Source: Candidatus Atribacteria bacterium UBA6251 (GTDB taxonomy: Bacteria; Atribacterota; Phoenicimicrobiia; Phoenicimicrobiales; Phoenicimicrobiaceae). Taken from it: a stretch of 64,000 bases of DNA. The stretch is taken from contig DJVR01000045.1 in NCBI GenBank assembly GCA_002441285.1, positions 1,144 to 65,143 of the forward strand, written 5' to 3'. A program made the position numbers and the translations under genes. The notes under the pieces are model-generated. The model worked only from the letters and a program-made list of their open reading frames with translations. It ran no database searches and was not told the DNA's origin. Below, in pieces: positions 10,148 through 25,248 of the stretch; the first letter of the stretch is position 1, and the number at the start of each line of letters is the position of its first letter.

Positions 10148-10351
10148 ACTTAACCCAACCTTAATTAACGATATTTTTTGCCTAAGGATTTGTGTAACCT
10201 GCGTGCGGGCTGAGCTGTGCAGATATTTTTTGAATTAAATCAAATTTCTGATAACGAATCCAAACTTCCTAAACCTGACGCGCCCTGTACTTCAAGTTAA
10301 CACAATTATTATGCCATATTTCTTCATTCTCTAAATGTTATATCAACTAAT

Positions 10352-10535
10352 GGATGTTCCATCTTATAGAAAATAGGAACATCCTATTTTTTTATGGTTT
10401 AGCTTTCCATTTTACGAGGTCTTCCTTTAGGACGTCTATCTATATTAAAACCTAAAGCCTCAACCATCCGATTAAGAAACTCCTCAAACCTTATAGTTTT
10501 TCCATTAAAAGCTACAGAATTATTGAACTAACATA
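10352..10535. repeat. direct repeat copy 2 (alternative hairpins plus remnant ORF tail)
   Basis: GGATGTTCC...GGAACATCC and AAAATAGGA...TCCTATTTT hairpins. On the minus strand a remnant tail reads ...FNGKTIRFEEFLNRMVEALGFNIDRRPKGRPRKMES*. It is homologous to 9027-9150. Confidence 0.6.
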
Positions 10536-10655
10536 GCTTATCTATTTAGTACTTATGGTAAGAAAATATGGTCCTATTTACTCAAACACTAAAAAAATTA
10601 TTTATTCTTTAATTTATTAGAATGTTAAAAATATTTTGTAATAATATTGTTATAA

Positions 10656-10889
10656 TTAATGTTCCTTATCTTTTGATGGACAAGGATCATTACCATAGCT
10701 ATCTTTGCTTCTTATTTTACCTTCGCGATTTTGTATATATAATTCAGATTTTTGATTTTCAGCAATTCTTTTAGCAATATCTATTGCTTCTTTTTGAGTT
10801 TTTGTAACTTTTGTTGCTCTTTTATTCCCTTCTCCTTTAATAGCCCAACCTTTAGGATGTACGGTTACCCATTGATTTTTCTTTGTCAT
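10656..10889 (-). CDS. DUF2188-family small protein
   Basis: 77 aa (WVTVHPKGWAIKGEGNKRATKVTKTQKEAIDIAKRIA...YGNDPCP) that matches my recollection of the DUF2188 pattern. Confidence 0.6.
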   Translation of the reverse strand: MTKKNQWVTVHPKGWAIKGEGNKRATKVTKTQKEAIDIAKRIAENQKSELYIQNREGKIRSKDSYGNDPCPSKDKEH

Positions 10890-10919
10890 TTTTTATTAAC
10901 TCCTATTAAAATAATTTAT

Positions 10920-11432
10920 TCAAGGAAAAACCTTAATTTCCTTTTTACTATATTTTTCAAGAAATTCAGAAGGTGTAAATATTTCTTTTCTTATTCCACA
11001 TTCTTCTCTTATTCGCTTTAACTGAGCTCTAAATTGGCGTAGATATTTATAATCAGTAGTTAAGTAATAATTCGAATAAATTGTTGAAACAATAAAATTT
11101 TTTGAATCAATCCCGTCTTTATCTTGCATTATTTTTATTAGACAATCTATTTGTTTGTCTAATATTTCATTATGTTTTTTAGTTACTACAACTGGCCATA
11201 ATCTCCATGCAGATCCCATCTTTTTTCTTACTGCTTCTCTTTTGATATTACCTGAACCCGATTCTTCAATCATAGTAGTAGAAATTGGAATACCAATCTC
11301 AAAAATACCTTTATGATCTAATTCAATTATCTGAAGAAATGCATTATTATCTTCCATTTTATTATCTGGTAAATTTGAATCAACTAAATCGCCTAGTACA
11401 AAGTTGTCTACTGTAATAGGAATCTTATCCAA
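10920..11432 (-). CDS. hypothetical protein (170 aa)
   Basis: ORF co-directional with res/mod, 30 bp upstream of the DUF2188 gene. No family was recognised. Confidence 0.5.
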   Translation of the reverse strand: MDKIPITVDNFVLGDLVDSNLPDNKMEDNNAFLQIIELDHKGIFEIGIPISTTMIEESGSGNIKREAVRKKMGSAWRLWPVVVTKKHNEILDKQIDCLIKIMQDKDGIDSKNFIVSTIYSNYYLTTDYKYLRQFRAQLKRIREECGIRKEIFTPSEFLEKYSKKEIKVFP

Positions 11433-11508
11433 TTTTTATATCCCATTATTATCTTTATTTCAAAACCTTTAAAATTAATATGATTATTGCCTAATAGAAG
11501 ATCTGTGT

Positions 11509-12312
11509 TCAGCTACTATATCTATCTTCTCTTTTCTTTAATTCCTTTTCAACTTCTTCTTTAATGGCAACTTCGGTTAAAAGTTTATATTTTGAATCTT
11601 TTGGTCTTCGAAAGGGAACCTTGGTATCAAATATATCTCCAAATAATGAATTCATTAACACAATCCGATAATCAAATAAATAGCATTGAATAGTAAAAAG
11701 ATTATCACTTATTTCATCGCATTTCTTAGTAAACTCAGAATTGCCTTTTTTGGTTAATAAATCTTTAATTGTTTTCTGAAAAAAGTATTTTTGAAAATCA
11801 ATAATTAATTCTTTAACATCTTCGGTTTTAAACTGAATATACTTTTTTAAGTGGTCAAATTGAATTACCCCGATTTCATTTGATTCAATAATCAAGCTAA
11901 GATTTGATATGCCTTTTAAAATGTTTACAACTTGTTGATTTATTTGAAAATCAATTTCAACTTTATTGAATTTTTGTATTTCTGAATATTTTTCATGCAA
12001 TAATAATTTACTCTTTAAATCAATATAATAAACCGAAATATTACCTATTAAATGTGAAAAGTTATAAATCTCTTTATTTATTTCTCTAAATGCATCTATT
12101 TCTAAAGATTTTTTAAACTCTTCTTTCTTAGCAATTTGATTATCTCTTCTGTTTTTTTGTAAATAATTTATTGCTATTAGTAATGCGATTAACCATCCAA
12201 CGATATTACTAAAATTAGTAAATTTTCCATGATAAAAATATTCTATTATCCCATAAGTTAATATAATCAATAAGGATATGAATATAAAAATATTATCCCA
12301 AAATACTTTCAT
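11509..12312 (-). CDS. hypothetical membrane-anchored protein (two N-terminal TM helices)
   Basis: 267 aa with hydrophobic segments IFIFISLLIILTYGII and IVGWLIALLIAINYL, followed by a helical soluble region. It starts 31 bp after the res stop. Confidence 0.55.
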   Translation of the reverse strand: MKVFWDNIFIFISLLIILTYGIIEYFYHGKFTNFSNIVGWLIALLIAINYLQKNRRDNQIAKKEEFKKSLEIDAFREINKEIYNFSHLIGNISVYYIDLKSKLLLHEKYSEIQKFNKVEIDFQINQQVVNILKGISNLSLIIESNEIGVIQFDHLKKYIQFKTEDVKELIIDFQKYFFQKTIKDLLTKKGNSEFTKKCDEISDNLFTIQCYLFDYRIVLMNSLFGDIFDTKVPFRRPKDSKYKLLTEVAIKEEVEKELKKREDRYSS

Positions 12313-12343
12313 AAGCCCATCTTTCTTTAATAGCTACTTCTTT

Positions 12344-15172
12344 TTACTTAACCCAAATTACTCCTTTTTGTAAATTGCTGAACCATAGATCGTAGTCCAT
12401 TGGTCTTAATAGTTCAAATGTGTAAAGGGTAGAGATGTCATCTTGAAATTCTTCGGAGAAATCGATAGGATTTGCTGATCTTAGTTTTTCATTCAATCTT
12501 TTAAAATGGTCTTTCCCCCATTTTTCTTTCGCGCGGGTAATTTCTTCCTGGTCTTCATCAGATTTAATTTCTACTGCCCGGATGATATTATTTATGCCTT
12601 TATCTTGTAATTGACGCAGGTCAGTTAAATTTATTTCCGGATTATCAGAAATTAATCTATCTATATAGCTTTCTAAATTTATTTTAACAAAGAAATCGGG
12701 ATTAAAACTCCTGCGGGTACGGTCTTTCCCTCCTTTAAAAAATTCATAATCAATGCTGTAAAATCCCATATCTCGAGATTTAATCCAGGAGGTTATATAT
12801 TTAGCATTTTCAATCAAATTGAAAACAAAAAATCTTTCTGGCTCATGAGAAACAATCACTAAATTTTGAGGAGTTTTAAATACGGAAGTGTTAACCACAT
12901 AAAGTAGTTTATCTTTTATTAGCCGGTGGAAATAGTCTGATTTTTCTTGGGGTATAAAGTCATATAGACTTAATTGATTGCTGGGCTTTTCTTTGAATCT
13001 TTTTACTAAATAATCAATAACAAACTTATTTTCTTCCTCTAATTCTCCCTGATAATCTTCGGAGATAAACACACTTGTATATTTTTCCAGCTCTCCGGAA
13101 CGGACACTTGAAGCCTCCATATCTTCAGTCCTAATCTCTTTAAAATTACCATCTATATTTATTCTTTTTGCCTTCTTAGTACCCTGAGGAAGAAATTGAT
13201 TGAAAAATAGATCTATTTGTTTGTGGTTATTTTTTGATAATTTATCCTCTCGAAACCCAGCATTTTTCATAGCAATTTTAATTATTTTTTCTATATCATC
13301 AATATCAGGTAATCTGTCTATAATCATTCCCTCTCCAAAATCAAAATGCTTGTTTTCAAATTGGCGATATTTGAATCTATCTGCTATTTCTGAAGCCACT
13401 TCATCAATTGAATAAAATTCCTTGGTTAGATTAAATCTTTTTTGGTCTAATAGATAATCCACTTTGAGATTTAATTTTTCCGAAGGGCAGGTTAAAATTA
13501 AGGTTCTATCCCTAAGGTCTTGCTTTAAAGCAGGAGCTCCCTCTATTTTCTCACCTGGTAGATATTCTAAATTAAAGAGATTAAAATTATATTTTGCCCG
13601 AGGACTATTTTTAAAAACATGAGATACAAAACGGGTTTCACAATCAGTAACTGCAAAAAGTAACTCTTTAATATGTTCGGCAAATTTCTCATGGTTAGTT
13701 ACGGTAACTACCGGATATCTTGCTTGAATTAGACTGTTTGGTACTTTTCGAGGTAATCTTAACCCTCTCCCTAAAACTTGTGAAATTAAAAGTTTTGATT
13801 TAAATACTCTTTCCTCCATGGGAACAATCTGATAAACATTATCTACATCCCAACCTTCTGATAATTTATTTACTGCAAAGATAAATTCTACTTTGCCTCC
13901 CGGCTTTTCAGGATTGAGCTCTTCTATCTGTTCCAATTTTTCCTGATAATCATCATCAGTAGGTTTGCTGATTACGCAAATTACTTTTTCTCTAGCCAAC
14001 GAATATAATTGGGAAATCGATAAATCTTGATATTCTGGCCGGGTATTCTTTAAATATTCACACAAAGCTTTAATAAATTCCTCAGTATTTTTCTGGGCAC
14101 TTGCCTGAGTAGGATTAATGAAGATAGTAATTGGTTTTAAACGAGAGTTCCCATTTAACTTATAAGAATAATTTTCTTTGTTTTTATCGTGGGTAATTAA
14201 TATTTGTTCAAACTTTTGAAATTGGGAGACAGTTTCCTTTTCTCCCTCAATTTTGGTATGGATAATGGAATTTATTATTTTAATATATTTCTCTTCTATT
14301 GCATCTTTAATAGAATAATTACAAATTACGTCAGCAAAATATTCATCCTGATTATAGGGAGTACCAGTAAACCCAATATGTCTTTTTATTTTTGGTTCCT
14401 CTCTCAAAAATTTCATCCATAGGCGCTCATCTCTATTTTCTCCTCTTCCCCCTTCTTCTATAACATAAGCATTGCCACTAAAGGATAGATGGGAGTAGGC
14501 ATGATGTACTTCATCACTTAAAACTAAGATTTCATCGGTCTGGGAAAATAAGGTATCTCCAATTGAATTTCTATCTTTATTAAAAACTGCGTTAATATTC
14601 TCAATAACAATTGAATTATCTACAATAGGATGATTCTCATCTAAAAGACTAATCGGGATATTACAATATTTTGGGGGAAGTTTTTGTTTTAATTTCTGAG
14701 CAGTCTGTCCATAAAGATATTCTCGAAATTTTCCTCTCAATCCCCTTTCAATTACCGTAGAAGAAGGACCCAAAACCAATACTCTTTTTACTTTTCCTAA
14801 AATAATCGATAGATAGGCTAAAGCAAACATTACATAGGATTTTCCAGTACCAGTAGCTAGATGCACCACTCCAGATAATCTATCTGGCAAAGGTAAATGC
14901 CTTATAAAATTCTCTTCACTCTGAAATCTTTGTTGAATCGCTCTTTTTTTTGCAAAATTTTCTCGAGCTAACTCGGAAATATCCTTATAACTTCCTCCCC
15001 AAAGATAAATCATCAACTCTTTGATTGCTTTAAACTGATAATCCCGGCTGCCCACTAATTCTCTAACAAAATCTTCTACTTCAGAAAAATCAAACTTATC
15101 ATAATTACATTTACGAACATCAATATCCAAAGTATGATTTGATAAATAAATTTTTTTAACTTTTTTCGGCAT
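12344..15172 (-). CDS. res: type III restriction enzyme Res subunit (SF2 helicase plus C-terminal PD-ExK endonuclease)
   Basis: 942 aa with Walker A LATGTGKSYVM and the DEAH-type box LSDEVHHA. The C-terminal nuclease pattern is NPDFFVKI...AVEIKSDED. It lies 20 bp downstream of mod. Confidence 0.85.
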   Translation of the reverse strand: MPKKVKKIYLSNHTLDIDVRKCNYDKFDFSEVEDFVRELVGSRDYQFKAIKELMIYLWGGSYKDISELARENFAKKRAIQQRFQSEENFIRHLPLPDRLSGVVHLATGTGKSYVMFALAYLSIILGKVKRVLVLGPSSTVIERGLRGKFREYLYGQTAQKLKQKLPPKYCNIPISLLDENHPIVDNSIVIENINAVFNKDRNSIGDTLFSQTDEILVLSDEVHHAYSHLSFSGNAYVIEEGGRGENRDERLWMKFLREEPKIKRHIGFTGTPYNQDEYFADVICNYSIKDAIEEKYIKIINSIIHTKIEGEKETVSQFQKFEQILITHDKNKENYSYKLNGNSRLKPITIFINPTQASAQKNTEEFIKALCEYLKNTRPEYQDLSISQLYSLAREKVICVISKPTDDDYQEKLEQIEELNPEKPGGKVEFIFAVNKLSEGWDVDNVYQIVPMEERVFKSKLLISQVLGRGLRLPRKVPNSLIQARYPVVTVTNHEKFAEHIKELLFAVTDCETRFVSHVFKNSPRAKYNFNLFNLEYLPGEKIEGAPALKQDLRDRTLILTCPSEKLNLKVDYLLDQKRFNLTKEFYSIDEVASEIADRFKYRQFENKHFDFGEGMIIDRLPDIDDIEKIIKIAMKNAGFREDKLSKNNHKQIDLFFNQFLPQGTKKAKRINIDGNFKEIRTEDMEASSVRSGELEKYTSVFISEDYQGELEEENKFVIDYLVKRFKEKPSNQLSLYDFIPQEKSDYFHRLIKDKLLYVVNTSVFKTPQNLVIVSHEPERFFVFNLIENAKYITSWIKSRDMGFYSIDYEFFKGGKDRTRRSFNPDFFVKINLESYIDRLISDNPEINLTDLRQLQDKGINNIIRAVEIKSDEDQEEITRAKEKWGKDHFKRLNEKLRSANPIDFSEEFQDDISTLYTFELLRPMDYDLWFSNLQKGVIWVK

Positions 15173-15192
15173 TTTTTATATCCTGCCTTCTC

Positions 15193-17328
15193 TTAAATTT
15201 TAGTAATTTTACTCTCATTACCATGTTTATCGATGGCAATGAGATAACTATTTTCCTTAAGATTTTCTACCTTGACTATCCCTTCTTTACTTATCTCTTT
15301 TTTATAAATGGCTAAATCCATATTAAATATTTTTCCATTATAATTTCTATCAATTAATAGCATAGATAACCCTTCTAAGCCTTCAAATCTTTTTTTACTT
15401 TTATCTAATATTTCTGTTTTAAATTGCGAAATCCTAAATCCTCCGCTTAGTCTTTCTACTTCAATCTTTATATCTTCGTTAAAATAGAACTCCGTGGAAG
15501 AAATTAATCTATTAATCTCTTCTTGGGAGCTAGGCTGTTCTTCAATCTGGAAATGACGGGATATATCCTCTAATACTTTATAAGGAAATTTTAATAGTTT
15601 GAAATTAACATCTTCATTATTACTGTTCTTTAAAGTAGTATTAGTTATGACTGTACAGGACTCTGGTGTAACTATATAATAATCCCCTTTTAATCTACCT
15701 CCTGTAGCGACAATAATTTCTTTCAGATAATCTTCGTCTATTTTAATATCTCTAAGATAATCATCTTTCCAGACGGGGTAGACTTCTACAGGATTATTAT
15801 CTTTTTCGGCATATATATTAGAAAGTTTATATTTTGAGGAATAATCTTTTTCGTCTCTCGCAATACCAAATAATCCTAATACAAAATTAATATAGGCGTC
15901 TTTATTTTTTCTTAAATTCATAATCCGGGAAAAATCATAAGCACCAGCAGAAATTATGGAAAAAGGCTGGGGCGGTTCCCCGTATTTTTCATTACTTTTT
16001 GCCTCTTGTCCTAATTTCTTAGAAGCAGCAATATTCCAAATTCTTTTCTGCATAGTGTAAATTGCGTGTTTACCAAAATCACACATAATCCAGCGCCGGC
16101 CTAATTTCTCAGCTACAGCAGCAGTAGTTCCGCTTCCAGCAAAAACATCCATAACCAAATCGTCTTCTTCGGAACAAGTACTAATTATTCTTTCAAGCAA
16201 TTCTTCTGAATTTTCTGTTGGATAGCCAGTAATTCTTGAATAACCTTTTATATCTGTCCAGTCTGTGTTAGACAAAATATAATCGCGGGGTGGTATCCAA
16301 TACTTTACACTATTGTAACTATTCAAATGTTCTTCTTTTTTTACGAATTCCTTAGTTTTACCAGTTCTTTTCCAATAAATATCTAATGGTAAATTCTGTT
16401 GTTTATATTCCCCATAATTTTTAATAGCTGCTTCTGTCCTTTCTTTTTTCCATAACCATTGCCCTTTTTCTGGCTTAATTTCAAATATTTTATACCTCAA
16501 GTTTGGTCTATTGGTTGGTTTCCAAAAAGTATGCCAGTAACTTTTTGCATTATCTCCAGCTTCTTTCATAAAGGCTTTAAACCTTGAACTTGTTTTTTTT
16601 GAATACCAATAAATACTATCTGTAGCAACATTCATAGATTTTTGAGTTTCAAATTGTGTATTCAATGCACCTTGCCTAGTTCTACTAACAATTATTTCGT
16701 TTCTAAAATTATCTCTACCAAATATTTCATCAGCAATTACTTTTATATAATGTCCAAAATGATAATCCATTCTTATAAAAATTGCTCCATTATTACTCAA
16801 TATCTCTCGTAAATAAATCAATCTTTCTCTTAAAGCTTCAATATATTCAGCGCCCATTAATTTCGCACTGTAACTCATTTCTCCATTGCTTCCACCATAC
16901 TCATCACCGGTACCGAATGGTGGGTCTATATAAATCAATTTCACTTTTCCTTTTACTTTATCTCTAATTAAAGGGTCCTGGTTTAAATAGCAGGTCTTTA
17001 AAAATTGCAAATTATCTCCTTGTACTATCATATTGTACCATTCATTATCTTTGGTTTCTCCGAATCTCCTCACTATTTGCAAAGGGGCAGCACCTCCGGT
17101 AAGAGCAGCCTGTGCTAGAATAACTGATTCCGGTCTTTTGCCAGCATACTCAATAGTGGGAATCTTAAATTTATTTAATTTCTGATAATCAAACTGCCCT
17201 TCTCGTTGAAGTTTTTCAAAAAAACCAGGAGATAGTTTAACCAGCAAATTTTCCGGAATTTCTGTTTGATTATTTATACATTCACTCAGTTTCTGCAAAT
17301 CATCTTCACTAAGATTTATCTTTGTCAT
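15193..17328 (-). CDS. mod: type III DNA methyltransferase Mod subunit (beta-class N6A/N4C MTase)
   Basis: 711 aa. Motif IV IYIDPPFGTG lies upstream of motif I VMDVFAGSGTTAAVAEKLGRRWIMCD (beta permutation). The mod-res gene order is typical of type III. Confidence 0.85.
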   Translation of the reverse strand: MTKINLSEDDLQKLSECINNQTEIPENLLVKLSPGFFEKLQREGQFDYQKLNKFKIPTIEYAGKRPESVILAQAALTGGAAPLQIVRRFGETKDNEWYNMIVQGDNLQFLKTCYLNQDPLIRDKVKGKVKLIYIDPPFGTGDEYGGSNGEMSYSAKLMGAEYIEALRERLIYLREILSNNGAIFIRMDYHFGHYIKVIADEIFGRDNFRNEIIVSRTRQGALNTQFETQKSMNVATDSIYWYSKKTSSRFKAFMKEAGDNAKSYWHTFWKPTNRPNLRYKIFEIKPEKGQWLWKKERTEAAIKNYGEYKQQNLPLDIYWKRTGKTKEFVKKEEHLNSYNSVKYWIPPRDYILSNTDWTDIKGYSRITGYPTENSEELLERIISTCSEEDDLVMDVFAGSGTTAAVAEKLGRRWIMCDFGKHAIYTMQKRIWNIAASKKLGQEAKSNEKYGEPPQPFSIISAGAYDFSRIMNLRKNKDAYINFVLGLFGIARDEKDYSSKYKLSNIYAEKDNNPVEVYPVWKDDYLRDIKIDEDYLKEIIVATGGRLKGDYYIVTPESCTVITNTTLKNSNNEDVNFKLLKFPYKVLEDISRHFQIEEQPSSQEEINRLISSTEFYFNEDIKIEVERLSGGFRISQFKTEILDKSKKRFEGLEGLSMLLIDRNYNGKIFNMDLAIYKKEISKEGIVKVENLKENSYLIAIDKHGNESKITKI

Positions 17329-17348
17329 AATATTCCCTCTTTTTTATT

Positions 17349-20300
17349 TTAATTTTCTTTAAAACTTAATTTTTTAACTAATAAATTATTTAAAATATCC
17401 AATTTTGTTTGATTTTTTTCTTGAGGAAGTAGAATGAACTTATTAATCCTTAAAAAACTATATCCGTAGCTTTCCAATTCCAGCTGGCGCTGGATATCGT
17501 ATTCAAGATATTCCTGAGAAAAATTATGTTTAGTAATTATTTCAGGATTTTTAGTATGATATTCTATTCCATCATATTCTAATATAAGAGATTTTTCTTC
17601 TCCGTGATGGGAAAAGATTATTAGAAAATCCACCCGATATTTAGGGATATATTTATTGTATGTTTTTTGTATATATTCCCCGATGGGGAATTGGGCAATT
17701 ATTTTTATTTTGTTCCGATTGGTTTTATAAAAATCAGTCTGAATTAATAAATTATAGAGGTCTTTTTCTGCAGGAGAACCAAATATTGTCTCATCAGTTA
17801 TATAATTATCAATAGCACTTTTTTGAATTTCTTGATAAAATTTTAAGGCATCACCCATGCGTGTATTAGAATACTCTTCCAAAGGCATACTGTGTACTAT
17901 AACCATAGTATCTTTAGCCCGGCTAAATCCTACATTTAATCTTTGCATCTTTAAACTGCGAATAGAATCTGCTCTTCCTTCTATTACCGGATAGATAGTA
18001 CGTAGATCTGCATTACCAATTGTTTTATCTTCTACCAAAGAATAATAAACTATATCTCTTTCTTCTCCCTGCACATCACCTACAAACCAGATTACTAATT
18101 TATGTTTTTTAGATAATCGATGGTAATTAGGTAATTCTTTTCGTAATATTTCCTCCATTCGATATTTTTGTTCTCTAAAGGAAGTAATAATACCAATTGT
18201 ACCTTTAAATCCATTGGCAATTATGTTTTGTATATCTTCTTTTATAGCTATTATTTCATCTAAGTTAACATTATTTCCTGAATTGCCTTTGGTATCCACT
18301 TTAATAAAACGTAAAACTTCATTAATGGGTTTAGTTCGAATGCGGTTAACGATTAAGGGAATCTGGCTGGGTCGATAGAAATATTCATTAGAATATTCAA
18401 TTATCTCCGGGAAACTCCGGAAATGAATATCCAAAGAAGTACTATAATTTTTTAGAGCTTTAGCAAAATTGAGCGTAGATGTCCGAATACTAAAAGTTTT
18501 TAACCATTCTTTAGTACCTTCTTCGGGCTTGTATATTGGCTCAATAAATTGCTCGTCCGGATTTACATCTAATGATGCTTCGGCTGTTATTTTTTCTTTT
18601 TCTTTTTCATCAAAGGCTATCTGATAATCTTTAGCATAATTATCTAAAATTTCTTTAAAATATTGATCTGAATATCTCTTGCTAACATTATATGCCCCCA
18701 CTGCTCCATATTGATATTCGTCACCAAAGACTACCATTTGCTTGGCCCTTAATAATAGAGAGATTGATTCGGCAATAGATACCTGAGAAGCTTCATCTAT
18801 TACTAAAAGGTCAATAGAATCTTCTTCCATTGGAAAGTATTTGGAAATTAAATCTGGTTCGGCAATAATGCAGGAAATATTTTCTAATAGAACTTTTAAT
18901 TCTTTAGGTGTCAATCTTTTGCCTGCTTTCATGCTAACGATAATTCTTTCTTTTTCAGTGGAAAAATTATTGAGATTTTTTATCCGCTGGTCATTAATAT
19001 TTTCTAATTTTTTATGGAGTGTTTGGTAATATTCTTTGATGACTTCTTGGTCAGGGAGATTAAATACTTCTTTTTGATTTAATTCTGTAAATAATTGGAT
19101 ATAATTTAAAACTTTATTGGGAATATCTTTCTCTGAAAATAACTCGTTTAAACTTTGTAAATCATCAAAATATATACCTACTTCTGATAGAATTGATGAA
19201 AAATATTTCTTTAAGATTTGCAGAGAAGAAAGGGTGTCGGAGTTTAAATTATCAATCAAATCTTTTATTTTACTTAACAGATGGAAAAGTTGTTTAATGT
19301 CTTCTTTAGTTAAATTTAATGATTGTAATGCTGGTGTTAACAATTTACGATTCGAAATATAGGTTTTAATATCTTTTAATTTAGAAATTCCAGATTTAAG
19401 TTCTTTTATAGTAATTGTTGATTTTTCTTTAGAGGCTAAATAAAAAATATTAGTTAATATACTATCGTATTCCAATTTTTCTAATAAATTTAAATTATTA
19501 TGGAATTCTTGATTATTTTTTATTTTCATTTTTATGAACATAGAACGGTATTTTAATTTTTCTTTATCTGTAAAAATTAAAGAATCGGGTTTTAAATTTT
19601 CGGCTATCTTAGAAAATAATTCTGAAAATTGGTCGAGATTTTTAAAATCATAATTCTTTAGATTATTTACTTCTGTTTTTTTTAGCGGTAAATTTTTTAT
19701 GTTTTGACAAGCGGTTAACCAATCAACTATTAGGCTTGATTTTTGGTAAAGAAAATTTAATTGATTTAAACTTAAATTACTTAAATCGTTTTCTTTTATT
19801 TTAATGATAAGCTCTCTTATAAGATCAAAATTAATATTTTCGTCTTTTTGTAGCTTATGAGGAGATTGATTTTCTTTAATTATGGATTTTTCTTGTAATT
19901 CTTTTTCTATTTGTTCGAAATTTAATAATTTAGAAATATATTCTTGGTAATTTTCGGAATTAGCCCAAAAATCATTATTCTGTTCTTCAATAATTTGATG
20001 CCAATTAGCAAGGTCCTTTTCAACCGCTTCTTCATTAAATTGATTAACTCTTTTATTTGATGCTGAAATAACCGGGTCAGAGAGTGTATTCTCAAAATTG
20101 TTAATGCTAATATCGTCTCGAGATATTCTTAAGATAGAAGGCTTAGACTCCGGATGCAATGCTCTAAATTTATCAGTCATCATCCGGTCAATTACATCGA
20201 GGGCTGCTTTTTTGTGAGAAGTAACCACAATTGATTTATTTTTCTGATTGGCCCAATAAGTAATCGCAGCTATTGTATAAGATTTTCCTGTTCCGGGGGG

Positions 20301-21665
20301 ACCATCTACTACAATTATATTATTTTGCTCATTTTCCAAAGCAATAAGTATTCTCTTTTGAGGATTATTTAAAGAAAGGGGGATGGTGGATAATAAATTA
20401 TTTACTGATTTCCGAGGGTAATGTTTGTTGAATTCTTCATCTACTTTGTCAGTTGTATTTTTAACATTACCAGAAATATAATTTTTAATAAGGCCGAGAA
20501 ATTTATCACCTTTTCCTGCATCAAGATGGGTAATTAATTCTGAATAATCTAATAATTTGCGGTTTTCTTTCTGTACTACCTGCAGACCGATGCGAAAGCT
20601 TATATTTGGATAATTGGGTAACTGAAATGATTTAAAACAATATACCAATAAAAATTCATCAAATATATTGTAGGTATTCTGTAAATGGTTTTCTATACTT
20701 CCTAAATAATATTTGGCATCTATGAATCTGGCTGCACGAGGAGTAGTTAAAATATTTTCGAACTCAAAAGAATTAATAGCCGGGGTATTAATAATCACTA
20801 TATCGTGTTTACTTCTAATAATTAATTTGTCAGCCAATTCGTCAATTTCAATTTCTATGAGAAAAAGAGGATACTTATCAATTTTTTCTTTTTTTTCTTC
20901 TTTTTCTAAATATATTTCATGAAAAAAGATATAGGCATTTCCTATCCCAACAAAGGGAATATATTTTCTAATAGTGCCATATAGGTCGAATATAGTAAGG
21001 TCAAACGATGCATCTAATATCTGCTTTTTTATTTGGGAAAAATATTTTTCTACATTGTTTTCTTTCTGTGCTATTTTTTGTAAAGAATCAAATATTTCTT
21101 GCTCAATACTTTGAGGATTTAAAGTTGATAAGGGCTTGCTCTTGAATTTTAATTCTGTCTTTAATTTTTCTATCTTTTGTTTTTGCAATTTGTAGAGAAT
21201 TTCTTTGGCGGTATTTCTAAAGGCTAAGTTGAATTTTCGAGAGCCTTCTGAGAAGATCTGTTTTCGAAATTCCTTTTTTTGTTCTATGTTATCAACTACT
21301 TGATTCCCTTCTTCTCCTGATAATATAATTTTGTTTCCATATAATTTTAGTAACCTATCCTCAGATTGTTTAATGCAGCTTTTGAGATATTCTAAATTGT
21401 AATCAGATTCGAGTTTATCAATTAATTTTTGTTTAAACTCGTCTTCGCTTACACTAACTTTGTAATCTCCTCTTTTTATTTCAAAACTAAACTTTTCTCC
21501 TTTTTTAATAGAATCCAATATTTTTTTCTGAAAATCTGGAAAAACAGATAAATCTGAGGTTAAAGAATCATCAGTCCATTTATAGTCTATTTTCTTTTGA
21601 AAATTAAAGCGGGTTTCGGTATAAGTGGCGAAGTAATTTAAAATGCTCTTGGCAAATTTTTTCAT
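17349..21665 (-). CDS. SF1B (Upf1/DNA2-like, AAA_11/AAA_12) helicase fused to a C-terminal DUF559/Vsr-like endonuclease domain
   Basis: 1438 aa with Walker A VVDGPPGTGKSYTIAAI, Walker B LLVIDEASQV, GDEYQ, VQGEERDIVYYS and RLNVGFSRAKD. The C-terminus KYRVDFLIIF...LILEYDGIEYH...SYGYSFLRI is DUF559-like. The N-terminal ~440 aa are unassigned. Confidence 0.8.
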   Translation of the reverse strand: MKKFAKSILNYFATYTETRFNFQKKIDYKWTDDSLTSDLSVFPDFQKKILDSIKKGEKFSFEIKRGDYKVSVSEDEFKQKLIDKLESDYNLEYLKSCIKQSEDRLLKLYGNKIILSGEEGNQVVDNIEQKKEFRKQIFSEGSRKFNLAFRNTAKEILYKLQKQKIEKLKTELKFKSKPLSTLNPQSIEQEIFDSLQKIAQKENNVEKYFSQIKKQILDASFDLTIFDLYGTIRKYIPFVGIGNAYIFFHEIYLEKEEKKEKIDKYPLFLIEIEIDELADKLIIRSKHDIVIINTPAINSFEFENILTTPRAARFIDAKYYLGSIENHLQNTYNIFDEFLLVYCFKSFQLPNYPNISFRIGLQVVQKENRKLLDYSELITHLDAGKGDKFLGLIKNYISGNVKNTTDKVDEEFNKHYPRKSVNNLLSTIPLSLNNPQKRILIALENEQNNIIVVDGPPGTGKSYTIAAITYWANQKNKSIVVTSHKKAALDVIDRMMTDKFRALHPESKPSILRISRDDISINNFENTLSDPVISASNKRVNQFNEEAVEKDLANWHQIIEEQNNDFWANSENYQEYISKLLNFEQIEKELQEKSIIKENQSPHKLQKDENINFDLIRELIIKIKENDLSNLSLNQLNFLYQKSSLIVDWLTACQNIKNLPLKKTEVNNLKNYDFKNLDQFSELFSKIAENLKPDSLIFTDKEKLKYRSMFIKMKIKNNQEFHNNLNLLEKLEYDSILTNIFYLASKEKSTITIKELKSGISKLKDIKTYISNRKLLTPALQSLNLTKEDIKQLFHLLSKIKDLIDNLNSDTLSSLQILKKYFSSILSEVGIYFDDLQSLNELFSEKDIPNKVLNYIQLFTELNQKEVFNLPDQEVIKEYYQTLHKKLENINDQRIKNLNNFSTEKERIIVSMKAGKRLTPKELKVLLENISCIIAEPDLISKYFPMEEDSIDLLVIDEASQVSIAESISLLLRAKQMVVFGDEYQYGAVGAYNVSKRYSDQYFKEILDNYAKDYQIAFDEKEKEKITAEASLDVNPDEQFIEPIYKPEEGTKEWLKTFSIRTSTLNFAKALKNYSTSLDIHFRSFPEIIEYSNEYFYRPSQIPLIVNRIRTKPINEVLRFIKVDTKGNSGNNVNLDEIIAIKEDIQNIIANGFKGTIGIITSFREQKYRMEEILRKELPNYHRLSKKHKLVIWFVGDVQGEERDIVYYSLVEDKTIGNADLRTIYPVIEGRADSIRSLKMQRLNVGFSRAKDTMVIVHSMPLEEYSNTRMGDALKFYQEIQKSAIDNYITDETIFGSPAEKDLYNLLIQTDFYKTNRNKIKIIAQFPIGEYIQKTYNKYIPKYRVDFLIIFSHHGEEKSLILEYDGIEYHTKNPEIITKHNFSQEYLEYDIQRQLELESYGYSFLRINKFILLPQEKNQTKLDILNNLLVKKLSFKEN

Positions 21666-21754
21666 GATTATTAATTTATTCTCCTATTTTTATTAAATTT
21701 TATAATGTTACTTTTAATAATTTTGGTAATAAATAATGATATTATTATCTATTT

Positions 21755-23083
21755 CTAAAAATCCTCTAAGGATTTATTACTTTCATCAATTTTTTCTATT
21801 AAATCCTTCAGCTCTTTGCTTGTATATACTATGGACAGATTAATACTATCATCTTTCCCCCACAATACTAATTCTATCTCTGTATCAGCAGTCTCCCATC
21901 TTGAGATAACATTTAAATGCCCTAAACTAATAGCCAGTCCCCAATTTTTTGAATCATTCCTATAAAGATTGTTGTTCCAATTTTGCTGGTCTATAAGTGG
22001 AGTTCCATATTTTTTAGTTAAGTTTTCCTTCAAATTAGAATATTCCGAAATATAATCATTTTTGTTGCTAAGGGATTTATCAAAATAATAAAACCAATAC
22101 GCTGTTTGGGTAAGTTTTCCATTTGCAAATTCATATAAAATATAACATGGAATTCCATTAGCATACCCTTGAAAAATCAATATATTATCTTTGCTATAAT
22201 CCTTTAAAAATATACTTACATTTTCTTCACATTGTATTACCTCTGTTTGGTTCATTCCCCAGTTTGTTTTCCTAAAGTTATATTGTTTTGCTAATTCTAC
22301 ATCTGTCTTAGAAATTATTTGTGATTGACTTGCTTTACTAATAGTGCTCTCATTTTTTTCTTGTTTATCTTTTTCTTTTATTTTATCTATCAAGTAATTT
22401 ATATTTTCATTTTCTTTTCTTGCAGCTGTTTCCTTAATGATTTCTTTAGTCCCTTCACCAACATAGCTCATTTCCGGGAATTTTTTTAAAATACGTTTTA
22501 CTATTTCACTGCCATATTTTTCTATGTCAGATTTTCTGGTAGAGGTAAACCCTGCCCCTTCCCAAACTTTTTCACAAGACCTAGATAAATTTTCTAAAAA
22601 ACTGATATATACATAAGGATAGTAGCGATTTTTTGTTACCGTAATACTGGTCCAAGAGCCACTACCAAAAGTATAGACATTACCAGAAAAATGAGTCATT
22701 CCTATATGACCGGAATAGGTAGTGGTTTTATTATTCGACTGATATATTGGTATACTTTCAGTAGTTTTAGCAAATTCATTGCTGGAAAATAAAAAAATTA
22801 CCAAATCTGCTTCTAAAAAATTTTCCTTATATTTATATCCTTTTTCTTCTAATATTTGAATAATTTCTTTTTGCAGATGTTTATTAGGTAAATAATTGGG
22901 ATATAATTTGATCTTATCATCTTCATAAAAACCAAAGGACCTATATAAACTATAATTGGTAAATGGATTATCGTGAGTTTCGATATTGTAAAAAGTAAAC
23001 AATGAACAGTAACTTAGAGGGGTATAACTTATCAGTATCAAAAATATTAATATAATAAAGGTTAATAAATATTTTCTTTTCAT
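21755..23083 (-). CDS. hypothetical secreted protein or lipoprotein
   Basis: 442 aa with an N-terminal signal-like segment MKRKYLLTFIILIFLILISYTPLSYC. No family was recognised. Confidence 0.55.
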   Translation of the reverse strand: MKRKYLLTFIILIFLILISYTPLSYCSLFTFYNIETHDNPFTNYSLYRSFGFYEDDKIKLYPNYLPNKHLQKEIIQILEEKGYKYKENFLEADLVIFLFSSNEFAKTTESIPIYQSNNKTTTYSGHIGMTHFSGNVYTFGSGSWTSITVTKNRYYPYVYISFLENLSRSCEKVWEGAGFTSTRKSDIEKYGSEIVKRILKKFPEMSYVGEGTKEIIKETAARKENENINYLIDKIKEKDKQEKNESTISKASQSQIISKTDVELAKQYNFRKTNWGMNQTEVIQCEENVSIFLKDYSKDNILIFQGYANGIPCYILYEFANGKLTQTAYWFYYFDKSLSNKNDYISEYSNLKENLTKKYGTPLIDQQNWNNNLYRNDSKNWGLAISLGHLNVISRWETADTEIELVLWGKDDSINLSIVYTSKELKDLIEKIDESNKSLEDF

Positions 23084-23507
23084 AATATCTGAATCTCCTT
23101 AATAATATATTATTTTTTAGAGATTTTTAATTTGAGGTAGCAAATAACTGTGAGCAATAAAGGTAAATCATAACAGGATTGATGAGTTTGTACTCTACAT
23201 TTCCTTTCCCTCCACCATCATAACAAGGATACAGCAAGCTCTAACCTTCTTATTACAGGTGATAGACTAAATACAACAAAGAAATTATTATATTTAGTCC
23301 ATGGTAGTTTGACTACAGTATGTCAGCAATTGGTAAATAAAAATTAATTTTAGGAATTATAATTTCCGATTATTAATACGACAAAAGACTGGGGAAATCC
23401 TTTTTTTGAGAGAAAACTTATTAAAAAATAAGAAGCACCTTTATATATGCTCGGGTTTGCCAGCTATAGTTGTGCGAATTTTTTATTTGCTTGGTGTTAA
23501 CTAATAA

Positions 23508-23591
23508 GGTGCAAAATTTGCACCTGACTTAGTTCAAAATTTGGAGGGGGGTAGTTCAAATTTTGCACCAGGGGTAGTGCAAAATTTGAAC
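23508..23591. promoter_or_regulatory. array of four palindromic (G/T)TnCAAAATTTGnA(C) sites
   Basis: The sites are GGTGCAAAATTTGCACC (23508-23524), AGTTCAAAATTTGGA (23531-23545), AGTTCAAATTTTGCACC (23553-23569) and AGTGCAAAATTTGAAC (23576-23591). Centre-to-centre spacing is about 22-23 bp. Confidence 0.5.
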
Positions 23592-23651
23592 AATAACAAT
23601 AACCATATAAATAATACCAATATAACAACAACAAAAGAAGAGGTTGCTGTT

Positions 23652-23828
23652 ATGGTTAACTCTAAAAAATTAAAAGAAAAAGGCACTGAGAAGATAGTAG
23701 TCCTGAAGACTATAAGATCAATTCGGGAGAAAATAAGAAAAGCTAACAGAGAATCCACCTCTTCACAGAAAAATAATGAACCTAAACCAAACATTATTTT
23801 TGAAAAAGAAAAATTCAAGGTCCACTAA
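23652..23828 (+). CDS. possible small basic protein (58 aa)
   Basis: ATG at 23652 is preceded by GAAGAGG. The product MVNSKKLKEKGTEKIVVLKTIRSIREKIRKAN... is K/R-rich. The upstream part of the 95-aa track ORF is low-complexity sequence overlapping the palindrome array. Confidence 0.3.
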   Translation: MVNSKKLKEKGTEKIVVLKTIRSIREKIRKANRESTSSQKNNEPKPNIIFEKEKFKVH

Positions 23829-23848
23829 GAAATTCAAGGTCCACTAAG
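23811..23848. repeat. perfect 19-bp tandem duplication AAATTCAAGGTCCACTAAG x2
   Basis: 23811-23829 and 23830-23848 are identical. The first copy contains the stop codon of the small ORF. Confidence 0.9.
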
Positions 23849-23931
23849 TATCGATCATCATAAAAATCTTTAACTTAGTAAATCAACCCCTCCTGAACAA
23901 GATACCTATAATATTGTAATTTTATAAATTT

Positions 23932-25248
23932 TTAATTGCTTTTGGTAGACACAGAAAGTTCTTTAAGATAAAGATGAGGAAACTTATATTGTCCGTTAAT
24001 CCATCTTGCTTTATCTCCTATAGCAACTATATTTTTTAAATCGGTTAACGCATTCCCAGCAATCATTATATCTTTAATCCTTCCTACCACCTTGCCTTGC
24101 TCTATTTTAAATCCTAACTGTACACTGTTGGAAAAGGCTCCACTTAAGATATTTCCTTGCCCTAAACCCAGTACCTGATCGATAATAATACCCTCTCGAA
24201 TATCTTTAATCATTTCTGAGAAGGGTACTTTCCCTTCTTCCATAATTAAATTATTAATTTTAGGAGCAGGTTCACTTTCTATACCCGATCTTATTCCATT
24301 GCCAGTGCTTTCTACCCCCGCTAAACCGGCTGTTTGTAAATCATAGTAAAAGCTTTTTACTACTCCCTTCTCCACTAGAGGAAATCTCCTGGTCTCTATT
24401 CCTTCGTCATCAAAAGGCGCACTACCTAAGGCAAAATCTATGGTCCCATCATTATAAAGACTAAATAATTCACCCCATAGTTTATTACCTAGTTGATTGG
24501 TGAAAGGCGATATCTTCTGATAGACCATCTTTCCATTCAAACCACTAAGAATGGGCAAAATCAAGGTTATGACAGCTTTGGGAGTAAAAATAACCGGCAT
24601 TTTCCCACCCTTAATGGGAACAATCTTTTTGCTCCATTGTAGATTCTTAATTATTTCTGCTTTTAGCTCCTCAATATTCAGGTTATCATTGCCGAAAGAA
24701 ATGGAATCATATACCATCAGGATATCTTTGGTTTCAACTTTTTGGGCCATTATTGAACAGGAAAAGGTGGTCTTCTGATAAGTAAAATCTTCATCCTGGC
24801 TATTAACATACTCAATCTGACTATAATCCTGCAAAATATTTAAATCGATGCGTAGATGTGGATCAAAATCTCTAAATTGATCAATCAACTTCTCTCCTAT
24901 TCCCACCATTTCTTCTACACTTTTATTTTTAACTCTCTTATCGTAGATTTCTAACCTCTTTTTGGATTTTGTTTCCATTTTTGGAGGGAAATTAAAAGCG
25001 GATACTGCTCCATATTCTGAACTAGCTATAGCTTTTTCTAAAATTGAATCAAAATCTCCATTACCGGATAAAGAAGAAAAGCCTAATCTACCCTGGTGGA
25101 TTATTCTTAAAGCCAAACCTTCTTGTTCCGCAATATCAATAGATTTTAGTCTGTTTACTTCAAAATTAACTGGAATAGTTTTACTTTTTACCTTAAAAAG
25201 TTCGGCAGAATCTACTTTTTTTCTGGCTCTTTCCAATAATTTTTTCAT
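23932..25248 (-). CDS. pmbA: metalloprotease PmbA/TldE
   Basis: 438 aa with PmbA/TldD-family sequence, immediately downstream of tldD (1-bp gap). Confidence 0.8.
   Translation of the reverse strand: MKKLLERARKKVDSAELFKVKSKTIPVNFEVNRLKSIDIAEQEGLALRIIHQGRLGFSSLSGNGDFDSILEKAIASSEYGAVSAFNFPPKMETKSKKRLEIYDKRVKNKSVEEMVGIGEKLIDQFRDFDPHLRIDLNILQDYSQIEYVNSQDEDFTYQKTTFSCSIMAQKVETKDILMVYDSISFGNDNLNIEELKAEIIKNLQWSKKIVPIKGGKMPVIFTPKAVITLILPILSGLNGKMVYQKISPFTNQLGNKLWGELFSLYNDGTIDFALGSAPFDDEGIETRRFPLVEKGVVKSFYYDLQTAGLAGVESTGNGIRSGIESEPAPKINNLIMEEGKVPFSEMIKDIREGIIIDQVLGLGQGNILSGAFSNSVQLGFKIEQGKVVGRIKDIMIAGNALTDLKNIVAIGDKARWINGQYKFPHLYLKELSVSTKSN

What the first reader, a model, noticed from the sequence alone, without database searches (positions are those of the whole stretch)
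17349..21665. 1438-aa SF1B helicase with C-terminal DUF559/Vsr-like nuclease and a ~500-residue insertion between Walker A and B, placed directly in front of a type III R-M
Seen in sequence:
- All Upf1/DNA2-like SF1B motifs are present (GPPGTGKS, LVIDEASQV, GDEYQ, QGEERD, RLNVGFSRAKD).
- Walker A is encoded near 20300 and Walker B near 18795, so about 500 residues of K/E/N-rich, probably helical sequence separate them.
- The N-terminal ~440 aa are unassigned.
- The last ~110 aa carry the DUF559 pattern (YRVDFLI...LEYDG..YH...GY.FLRI).
- The gene ends 20 bp before mod.

Established knowledge: helicase-nuclease fusions of the COG1112 type occur as stand-alone anti-phage proteins (for example Nhi-like or Mokosh-type). 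DUF4011-like giant helicases are largely uncharacterised.

Inference: this is either a stand-alone defence gene parked beside the R-M, or a functional third component of it.
Basis: partly seen in the sequence, partly recalled or inferred. Interest (0 to 1): 0.6.

Follow-up and report, generated by a model that had tools for sequence, protein, structure and literature searches.

The report
Helicase-nuclease partner of Type III restriction
The giant helicase-nuclease gene is real, and it is the fixed first gene of a three-gene restriction-modification cassette found in uncultured bacteria of many phyla, a variant of Type III restriction I found described nowhere and whose third enzyme has not been tested.

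Summary
The 1438-aa ORF (17349-21665, minus strand) is an Upf1/Sen1/Dna2-like SF1B helicase. A folded all-helical insert of about 400 residues splits its first RecA domain. It has a C-terminal Vsr/DUF559-like nuclease and a 425-residue N-terminal domain with no match among solved structures.

In every relative with enough flanking DNA but one, the helicase sits upstream of orthologues of this same Mod and Res. In the exception, more than 10 kb of other defence genes follow the helicase and the held DNA ends. Four Res homologues picked without regard to neighbours all had the helicase upstream. The three proteins co-diverge (helicase-Res r = 0.94). In about a third of loci other defence genes lie between helicase and mod.

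Sister proteins at about 29% identity share the architecture but have no Mod/Res.

Closest precedent: the Eco86II/BspHIV three-gene Type III systems (Murray 2021). Their third gene is a non-homologous SNF2 ATPase without a nuclease.

The protein is not Hhe, ProA, Mokosh or Hma. The mechanism (degrading DNA after Res cuts it, or acting as a guard) is inferred. This is a new variant of a known kind.

The parts
17349..21665 (-). Gene for the 1438-aa SF1B helicase-nuclease, first gene of the cassette
   Evidence: ORF and translation. Pfam AAA_11 and AAA_12. At least 395 hits in the homologue search; the top 120 are almost all full-length, 1330-1545 aa.
20391..21665 (-). N-terminal domain, residues 1-425: mixed alpha/beta, no known fold, highly conserved
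   Evidence: AlphaFold2 model with pLDDT 82 and pTM 0.74. Best match among solved structures has E 0.017 and TM 0.13. 33 invariant columns. Its profile finds only 148 representatives among 1.84 billion; the full-length ones are all helicases of 1330-1660 aa. Shared remotely with the stand-alone sister family (hhalign probability 94.6%).
20097..20390 (-). First part of RecA1, with Walker A (GPPGTGKS, residues 455-462)
   Evidence: Translation. Invariant columns.
18876..20096 (-). All-helical insert of about 400 residues (roughly 524-930) inside RecA1, between Walker A and Walker B
   Evidence: The model shows only helices here, with pLDDT mostly 80-90. It is the least conserved part of the protein, 35-43% column conservation.
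17871..18875 (-). Rest of RecA1 (DEAS Walker B, GDEYQ) and RecA2 (QGEERD, RLNVGFSRAKD)
   Evidence: AAA_12 at residues 1071-1257. Fold matches to Senataxin/Sen1, Aquarius, Dna2, Upf1 and IGHMBP2, with E from 2e-7 to 1e-4.
17352..17798 (-). C-terminal Vsr/DUF559-like (MTES_1575-like) nuclease domain. R1344, D1346, E1363, D1365 and H1370 are invariant.
   Evidence: Sub-threshold MTES_1575 and DUF559 matches in 10 of 10 members. Invariant columns.
15193..17328 (-). mod: 711-aa beta-class N6/N4 amino-methyltransferase. DPPF precedes FAGSG, with a hypervariable target-recognition region at about residues 200-360.
   Evidence: Pfam N6_N4_Mtase, E 1.6e-36. PADLOC MTase_III hits. Among the best solved-structure matches are two Type III Mod subunits (6k0w, and 4zcf = EcoP15I Mod). 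The recognition region is swapped in a close relative.
12344..15172 (-). res: 942-aa SF2 ATPase (ATGTGKS, DEVHH, GRGLR) with a C-terminal PD...EIK nuclease motif
   Evidence: Pfam ResIII and SWI2_SNF2. The motifs are at least 97% conserved in 38 homologues.
10920..12312 (-). Two trailing co-directional genes (267-aa protein with two predicted membrane helices, and a 170-aa protein). Not core; shared only with close relatives.
   Evidence: No family hits. The 267-aa protein has a homologue right after res in L019. The 170-aa protein has homologues about 3.5 kb past res in L022 and L028.

Best explanation
The ORF is the first gene of a three-gene operon: SF1B helicase with a Vsr-like nuclease, then a Type III-like Mod, then a Type III-like Res. 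The three are inherited and diversify as one unit, so the helicase-nuclease is a dedicated partner of this Mod/Res lineage.

Shown here:
- the domain make-up;
- the fixed gene order;
- linkage in both directions;
- co-divergence of the three proteins;
- invariant catalytic motifs in all four enzymatic modules (helicase ATPase, Vsr-like nuclease, Res ATPase with its PD-ExK nuclease, and the Mod methyltransferase);
- a hypervariable recognition region in Mod.

Inferred mechanism:
1. Mod (as Mod2Res) tells self from foreign DNA by methylating an asymmetric site.
2. Res uses ATP to communicate between unmethylated sites and makes the first cut.
3. The helicase-nuclease loads at that break or at the stalled complex.
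4. It moves 5' to 3' along one strand and nicks or degrades as it goes, turning one repairable break into loss of the invading DNA.

The confidence given is for 'functional third component of the restriction system'. I put the specific step, degradation after the Res cut, at about 0.35.
For: - Helicase to R-M: 8 of 8 helicase homologues (46-70% identity) looked up by exact sequence have an N6_N4_Mtase gene downstream on the same strand, and all 7 whose contig reaches that far have a ResIII/SWI2_SNF2 gene after it.
- Metagenome loci: every family locus with enough downstream DNA carries an orthologue of this Mod (43-74% identity), and where the DNA extends far enough, of this Res (47-90%). The one exception is L041.
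- R-M to helicase: 4 of 4 Res homologues (53-62% identity), chosen without knowing their neighbours, have the 1435-1527-aa AAA_11/AAA_12 gene upstream. In one it is split into three ORFs.
- Co-divergence: pairwise identities correlate at r = 0.94 (helicase-Res), 0.88 (helicase-Mod) and 0.84 (Mod-Res). No Mantel permutation out of 2000 reached these values.
- Operon: 20-nt gaps separate the three genes in the window.
- Contrast: the stand-alone sister family (about 29% identity, same architecture) never has this Mod/Res and has variable neighbours. A branch with 100/100 support separates the two groups.
- Embedding: other defence genes lie between helicase and mod in 10 of 28 loci, against 1 of 28 between mod and res. 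The cargo was typed. This is the pattern reported for multi-gene systems by Payne 2024 (bioRxiv 10.1101/2024.01.29.577857).
- All catalytic motifs are invariant.
- The Mod recognition region is swapped between close relatives, as expected for a working R-M system.
Against: - Res keeps its own nuclease motif, so restriction may not need the helicase.
- In the analogous Eco86II system the extra, non-homologous ATPase was needed neither for methylation nor for cleavage in vitro, and it did not co-purify with Mod and Res (Murray 2021, PMC8259958).
- The sister family appears to work alone, so the helicase-nuclease may be self-sufficient.
- I have no physical-interaction, expression or phenotype data.
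- The nuclease assignment rests on sub-threshold profile matches plus conserved residues.
- The linkage survey draws on metagenome contigs and is not an exhaustive census.
Confidence: 0.6

Rival explanations
1. The helicase-nuclease is an autonomous single-gene defence of the Hhe type. It travels with the R-M as a co-selected neighbour, and the two do not work together biochemically.
For: - A sister family with the same architecture, including the N-terminal domain (hhalign probability 94.6%), sits in variable neighbourhoods without this Mod/Res.
- The protein carries its own motor and its own nuclease.
- Res keeps its own nuclease.
Against: - No unlinked case turned up in either direction.
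- Helicase and Res co-diverge more tightly than Mod and Res do.
- Independent neighbours would be expected to reshuffle, and the variable cargo lies between the genes, not outside them.
Confidence: 0.2
2. The helicase-nuclease is a guard or back-up. It is held in check by an intact Mod/Res complex and released when a phage anti-restriction protein or DNA modification blocks the R-M. It then attacks DNA in the cell (abortive infection), much as PrrC is coupled to EcoprrI.
For: - Tight linkage and co-divergence with Res fit a protein-protein checkpoint.
- A conserved N-terminal domain of unknown fold and a conserved segment modelled with low confidence (residues about 983-1109) could be docking surfaces.
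- The Eco86II precedent shows that an extra ATPase can be dispensable for basic restriction.
Against: - No direct evidence.
- No sensor domain was recognised.
- The stand-alone sister proteins show that the architecture does not need an R-M partner.
Confidence: 0.12
3. The helicase-nuclease is a housekeeping DNA repair or RNA-metabolism helicase that only happens to lie next to an R-M system.
For: The closest solved folds are eukaryotic Senataxin/Sen1, Aquarius, Dna2 and Upf1.
Against: - Distribution is patchy: 2 of 86 genomes of the phylum, one of them only a partial gene on a 2.5-kb contig.
- The G+C content is below that of the flanks.
- The neighbourhoods hold recombinases, integrases and defence genes.
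- The R-M partner is always present.
Confidence: 0.03

Closest known systems
Eco86II / BspHIV-type three-gene Type III R-M systems (Murray et al. 2021, PLoS One, PMC8259958)
   Same: - A conserved extra helicase-like ATPase gene lies immediately 5' of mod-res.
- It is linked to Type III systems in hundreds of genomes.
- Its function is unknown.
- Mod is a beta-class N6/N4 methyltransferase.
   Different: I fetched the Eco86II locus (L149).
- Its third gene is a 963-aa SNF2-family SF2 ATPase (SNF2-rel_dom plus Helicase_C) with no nuclease.
- It shows no significant similarity to this SF1B protein (blastp E 0.049; no hit in the NCTC86 chromosome).
- Its Mod and Res are also only remotely related to those here.
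- The third protein here carries its own nuclease, a novel N-terminal domain and a 400-residue insert.
Canonical Type III R-M (EcoP15I, EcoPI)
   Same: - Gene order mod then res.
- Mod has DPPF before FxGxG, with a central variable recognition region.
- Res is an SF2 ATPase with a C-terminal PD-(D/E)xK nuclease.
   Different: - There is an obligatory third gene.
- Res is too diverged to match any solved structure by sequence and matches the PADLOC REase_III model only weakly.
Hhe (Gao et al. 2020) and NCBIfam ProA, PADLOC PDC-S37: giant stand-alone SF1 helicase-nucleases
   Same: - Upf1-like AAA_11/AAA_12 core.
- Long spacing between Walker A and Walker B.
- Vsr/DUF559-type C-terminal nuclease (a feature I recall for Hhe).
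- The profiles give partial matches.
   Different: - Scores fall far below the family cut-offs: ProA 99.7 bits against 1500, Hhe 62 against 2000.
- No DUF4011 match.
- Those proteins are single-gene systems; this one is always paired with Mod/Res.
Hma (helicase, methylase, ATPase; Payne 2021 PMC8565338; Payne 2024 bioRxiv 10.1101/2024.01.29.577857)
   Same: - Three-gene plan of helicase, methylase and ATPase.
- Other defence genes lie embedded between the core genes in a large share of loci.
- Wide but patchy phyletic spread.
   Different: - Hma has a methylase described as m5C and a DUF499 ATPase.
- Here the methylase is N6_N4_Mtase, and the ATPase is a ResIII-type SF2 enzyme with a PD-ExK nuclease.
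- No Hma model appeared among the listed PADLOC hits. For Mod only the best 25 of 48 were shown.
Mokosh (MkoA/MkoB, MkoC)
   Same: The helicase core matches the MkoA and MkoC profiles (E 1.6e-27 and 4e-24).
   Different: - Only the helicase core aligns.
- There is no PLD nuclease partner or domain.
- The N-terminus and the nuclease are different.

Membership tests
Upf1-like SF1B helicases (Pfam AAA_11 + AAA_12) | AAA_11 and AAA_12 matches above the Pfam gathering scores; motifs I, II, III and VI; Upf1-like fold | tested here: met
   AAA_11 scores 47.9 bits and AAA_12 56.3 bits, against a cut-off of 27. The motifs are invariant. Foldseek matches Senataxin, Sen1, Dna2, Upf1 and IGHMBP2 with E from 2e-7 to 1e-4.
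Vsr / DUF559 / MTES_1575 nuclease clan | Profile match above the gathering score; conserved D...E-x-D...H catalytic pattern | tested here: inconclusive
   MTES_1575 scores 23.2 bits against 38.2, and DUF559 18.4 against 20.6. Both are below cut-off but recur in 10 of 10 members. R1344, D1346, E1363, D1365 and H1370 are invariant. The domain was not searched as a separate fold.
Type III restriction-modification | Beta-class amino-methyltransferase Mod with a central recognition region, encoded directly upstream of res | tested here: met
   DPPF near residue 134 precedes FAGSG near residue 395. N6_N4_Mtase, E 1.6e-36. Matches to the EcoP15I Mod and to 6k0w. Hypervariable region at residues 200-360.
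Type III restriction-modification | Res is an SF2 ATPase with a C-terminal PD-(D/E)xK nuclease | tested here: met
   ResIII and SWI2_SNF2. ATGTGKS, DEVHH, GRGLR, FNPDFF and EIK are at least 97% conserved. The PADLOC REase_III match is weak.
Type III restriction-modification | Two-gene system (mod and res only) | tested here: not met
   A third gene is linked to the pair in every locus where linkage could be checked, except L041, where the held DNA ends first.
Type III restriction-modification | ATP-dependent cleavage about 25 bp from inversely oriented unmethylated sites; hemimethylation of an asymmetric motif | not testable with these tools
   Needs biochemistry and methylome sequencing.
Eco86II/BspHIV three-gene Type III group (Murray 2021) | Conserved helicase-like ATPase gene immediately 5' of mod | tested here: met
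   The gene order is the same.
Eco86II/BspHIV three-gene Type III group (Murray 2021) | Third protein homologous to the Eco86II extra ATPase (SNF2-type SF2, no nuclease) | tested here: not met
   The Eco86II protein has SNF2-rel_dom plus Helicase_C. Blastp against P0001 gives E 0.049. P0001 has no match in the NCTC86 chromosome.
Hhe (NCBIfam NF042953; PADLOC Hhe) | Equivalog score of at least 2000 bits; DUF4011 domain; stand-alone gene | tested here: not met
   62 bits, covering residues 1078-1263 only. No DUF4011 in Pfam. Always found with Mod/Res.
ProA (NCBIfam NF058533) | Equivalog score of at least 1500 bits | tested here: not met
   99.7 bits. I found no paper describing ProA.
Mokosh | MkoA with a PLD-nuclease MkoB, or MkoC with a fused PLD domain | tested here: not met
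   Only the helicase core aligns. No PLD domain in the protein or its neighbours.
Hma | HmaA helicase, HmaB methylase (described as m5C), and HmaC DUF499 ATPase | tested here: not met
   No Hma model among the listed PADLOC hits (for Mod only the best 25 of 48 were shown). The methylase here is N6_N4_Mtase, and the ATPase is ResIII-type with PD-ExK.

The most novel reading that the evidence does not exclude
This cassette is a distinct three-component class of ATP-dependent restriction enzyme.

- A Type III Mod2Res module acts as the sequence-specific sensor that reads methylation.
- It hands the DNA to a dedicated, truly unwinding SF1B helicase-nuclease.
- That enzyme processively destroys the target, in the way Cascade recruits Cas3.
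- The conserved N-terminal domain, or the conserved segment modelled with low confidence (residues about 983-1109), is the docking surface.

The helicase-mod junction would in addition be a preferred landing site where further defence genes are embedded and expressed together with the system.
Probability: 0.3. Interest if true: 0.8.

Novelty: new variant of a known kind. Interest (0 to 1): 0.62.

Why it matters
Type III restriction has been understood as a two-subunit machine. The one published hint of a third partner (Murray 2021) involves a different, nuclease-free ATPase whose role is still unknown.

Here an unrelated helicase that carries its own nuclease was recruited to a different Type III lineage. 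It has stayed locked to that lineage across many phyla. An accessory motor next to Type III R-M has therefore arisen at least twice, which suggests it answers a recurring need. That need might be destroying DNA after the first cut, or coping with phage counter-measures.

The cassette offers three things to test:
- a defined three-gene system that can be cloned;
- a domain of about 425 residues with no known fold;
- a second example, beside Hma, BREX and Type I R-M, of defence genes embedded inside a defence operon, which can be mined for new systems.

Tried and rejected
1. DUF4011/Hhe, ProA, Mokosh and Nhi membership. Rejected on profile scores and missing partner domains.
2. Hma. Rejected: different methylase and ATPase families, and no PADLOC hit.
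3. Homology to the Eco86II third gene. Rejected after fetching the locus.
4. 'The N-terminal domain is unique to the R-M-linked clade and is therefore the coupling domain.' Rejected: the stand-alone sister family shares it remotely.
5. Fold search of the N-terminal domain against solved structures. No meaningful match.
6. Single-protein scan of genome contigs. It returned only 5 loci, because the patterns used were of low complexity.
7. Plasmid collection. One distant hit only. IMG/VR viral contigs held only sister-family or more distant helicases.
8. Promoter and terminator scan. Uninformative in this A+T-rich DNA: 77 sites against 76 expected.
9. Literature searches for ProA and for an SF1 helicase with Type III R-M. 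Nothing relevant found.
10. Finding Mod/Res beyond the 10 kb of embedded genes in L041. The rest of that contig could not be fetched under the holding limit.

Full report
**Observation**

The window has an uninterrupted 1438-codon ORF at 17349-21665 on the minus strand. The stretch has 27-30% G+C, against 32-38% in the flanks.

- GPPGTGKS, residues 455-462
- LLVIDEASQV, residues 953-962
- FGDEYQ, residues 980-985
- VQGEERD, residues 1198-1204
- RLNVGFSRAKD, residues 1242-1252
- the C-terminal YRVDFLI...LEYDGIEYH...GYSFLRI

Pfam gives AAA_11 and AAA_12 above threshold. It also gives a weak MTES_1575 match and no DUF4011 match. Walker A and Walker B are about 495 residues apart. The gene ends 20 nt before mod, which has a GAGGG ribosome-binding site.

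**The neighbours**

The next gene downstream is a 711-aa N6_N4_Mtase. DPPF precedes FAGSG, which is the beta-class order of Type III Mods. Among its best solved-structure matches are two Type III Mod subunits.

After it comes a 942-aa ResIII/SWI2_SNF2 protein. In 38 homologues of this Res, Walker A (ATGTGKS), DEVHH, GRGLR and a C-terminal FNPDFF...EIK nuclease motif are at least 97% conserved. This is a complete Type III-like Mod/Res pair. Res is diverged, however: it has no sequence match among solved structures.

**Anatomy of the helicase**

I predicted two pieces, using alignments of 28 family members.

- Residues 1-425 fold confidently (pLDDT 82, pTM 0.74) into a mixed alpha/beta domain. 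It has no significant match among solved structures; the best has E 0.017 and TM 0.13.
- Residues 426-1438 give an Upf1-like SF1B core. It matches Senataxin/Sen1, Aquarius, Dna2, Upf1 and IGHMBP2.
- The stretch between Walker A and Walker B, about residues 524-930, is a folded all-helical domain with pLDDT 80-90.
- The last 170 residues give MTES_1575 and DUF559 matches below threshold in 10 of 10 members. R1344, D1346, E1363, D1365 and H1370 are invariant.
- A well-conserved segment at about residues 983-1109 is modelled with low confidence.

**Family and context**

The homologue search returned at least 395 hits. The top 120 are almost all full-length proteins of 1330-1545 aa. Source names cover Ignavibacteria, Acidobacteriota, Syntrophales, Salinivirgaceae and Pseudomonadota, among others. 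Genome records add Atribacterota, Candidatus Peribacteria and Thermodesulfovibrionia.

Look-ups by exact sequence:
- 8 of 8 homologues at 46-70% identity have an N6_N4_Mtase gene downstream on the same strand.
- All 7 whose contig reaches far enough have a ResIII/SWI2_SNF2 gene of 942-956 aa after it.

Metagenome loci searched with tblastn:
- Every family locus with enough downstream DNA carries an orthologue of this Mod (43-74% identity). Where the DNA extends far enough it also carries an orthologue of this Res (47-90%).
- The one exception is L041. There the helicase is followed by more than 10 kb of other defence genes and the held DNA ends. These genes are AAA_21/RloB, DUF1016/YhcG, SIR2-HerA and an OLD-type ATPase.

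The reverse test:
- Four Res homologues (53-62% identity) were chosen only for their long contigs.
- All four have a 1435-1527-aa AAA_11/AAA_12 gene upstream.
- In one of them it is split into three ORFs.

Within the phylum:
- Only 2 of 86 genomes carry the helicase family, one of them only as a partial gene on a 2.5-kb contig.
- Res relatives at 32-37% identity occur there with a Mod but without the helicase. One has an HNH gene between mod and res.
- The helicase-linked pair is therefore a sub-branch of a wider Type III-like family.

**Co-divergence**

Across 29 cassettes (the window plus 28 non-redundant loci), pairwise identities correlate as follows:
- helicase-Res, r = 0.94
- helicase-Mod, r = 0.88
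- Mod-Res, r = 0.84

No permutation out of 2000 reached these values.

Mod carries a hypervariable block at about residues 200-360. In the closest relative (helicase 93% identical, Res 90%), this block falls to 12-42% identity while its flanks stay at 90-95%. That is the signature of specificity switching in a working R-M system.

**Embedded genes**

In 10 of 28 loci, between 0.1 and 4.9 kb lie between helicase and mod. Only 1 of 28 has an insert between mod and res. Where ORFs were found they are co-directional. They include:
- SLFN_AlbA_2-HATPase_c_4 (repeatedly)
- DUF4062-HATPase_c_4
- Fic
- DUF1016/YhcG nuclease
- ORF6N and Bro-N
- reverse transcriptase with SLATT_5
- AAA_21/SMC-like ATPase
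- Abi_2
- an extra methyltransferase

Payne et al. describe the same pattern for Hma, BREX, DISARM and Type I R-M. It places the helicase inside the system, not beside it.

**Sister family**

Proteins of about 1340-1540 aa at about 29% identity match residues of roughly 370-1410 in tblastn. They never have this Mod/Res nearby, and their neighbours vary. A profile-profile comparison shows that they also share the N-terminal domain (probability 94.6%, E 7e-8, 371 columns). That domain is therefore not specific to the R-M-linked clade.

A maximum-likelihood tree separates the 28 linked and 9 stand-alone proteins by a branch with 100/100 support. This is compatible with a single recruitment event.

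An HMM of the N-terminal domain finds only 148 representatives among 1.84 billion proteins. All the full-length ones are helicases of this kind. The family is rare.

**Comparison with what is known**

- Hhe, ProA, Mokosh and PDC-S37 profiles match only parts of the protein, far below the family cut-offs.
- Hma has a DUF499 ATPase and a different methylase.
[quoted passage not shown] - I fetched the Eco86II locus from E. coli NCTC86. Its third gene is a 963-aa SNF2 ATPase without a nuclease. It is not similar to the protein here. Its Mod and Res are only remotely related to those here.

The arrangement therefore has a precedent, but the component here is non-homologous and carries a nuclease. 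I found no paper describing this version.

**Mechanism**

Shown:
- the helicase is an obligate genomic partner of this Mod/Res lineage;
- all catalytic motifs are intact;
- Mod specificity diversifies.

Inferred:
1. Mod2Res discriminates self from foreign DNA and makes the first cut.
2. The SF1B helicase-nuclease loads there and unwinds 5' to 3' while cutting, which makes the damage irreparable.

Alternatives:
- an autonomous defence gene that is merely co-inherited;
- a guard that fires when the R-M is blocked.

The Eco86II result and the intact Res nuclease caution against assuming that the helicase is required for basic restriction.

**Verdict**

The 'third component' reading is supported. 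This is a new variant of a known kind, of moderate to high interest. The decisive work is genetic and biochemical.

Noticed in passing
L041:5362-15252: In this relative the helicase is followed by more than 10 kb of co-directional defence genes: AAA_21 plus RloB, a DUF1016/YhcG nuclease, SIR2 plus HerA, an OLD-type AAA_15-TOPRIM protein, and a metallophosphatase. No Mod/Res appears before the held DNA ends. This may be a very large embedded islet.
   Followed up: partly
L100:2740-13408: On an IMG/VR viral contig, a stand-alone-class helicase-nuclease lies directly after a DUF1156 methyltransferase and a DUF499 ATPase, an Hma/BREX-related pair. The same helicase superfamily may have been recruited to a second kind of methylation system.
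   Followed up: no
window 18339-18719 (helicase residues about 983-1109): This segment is highly conserved in sequence (invariant W1054, K1056, TF, R1061, TSTL and others) but is modelled with pLDDT 27-58. It may fold only on a partner or on nucleic acid.
   Followed up: no
L136:4901-11146 (genome G035, same family as the window's genome): A related Mod/Res pair at 32% identity has no helicase. It has a 537-aa HNH-domain gene between mod and res instead.
   Followed up: partly
L003:1980-3734: In a Thermodesulfovibrionia genome only the first 183 codons of the helicase and the first 172 codons of mod remain, 0.7 kb apart. This looks like a decayed remnant of the cassette.
   Followed up: no
L150:3149-7684: The helicase upstream of an intact Mod/Res is split into three ORFs (758, 540 and 217 aa). 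This is either a pseudogene or frameshift errors in a long-read assembly.
   Followed up: no
L007:4565-4735; L010:9719-9964; L143:1527-1706: Several relatives have a small HTH gene (HTH_17 or HTH_26, 56-81 aa) immediately upstream of, or overlapping, the helicase start. It may be a controller protein. The window has none in its 89-nt upstream gap.
   Followed up: no
window 10920-12312: The two unknown genes after res recur only in close relatives. The 267-aa membrane protein lies right after res in L019. The 170-aa protein lies about 3.5 kb past res in L022 and L028. They belong to the island and are not core to the cassette.
   Followed up: partly
window 10001-24000: G+C is 27-32% here, against 32-40% on both sides. 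G+C skew is near zero over 18-24 kb although the genes stay on the minus strand. This fits a horizontally acquired island.
   Followed up: no
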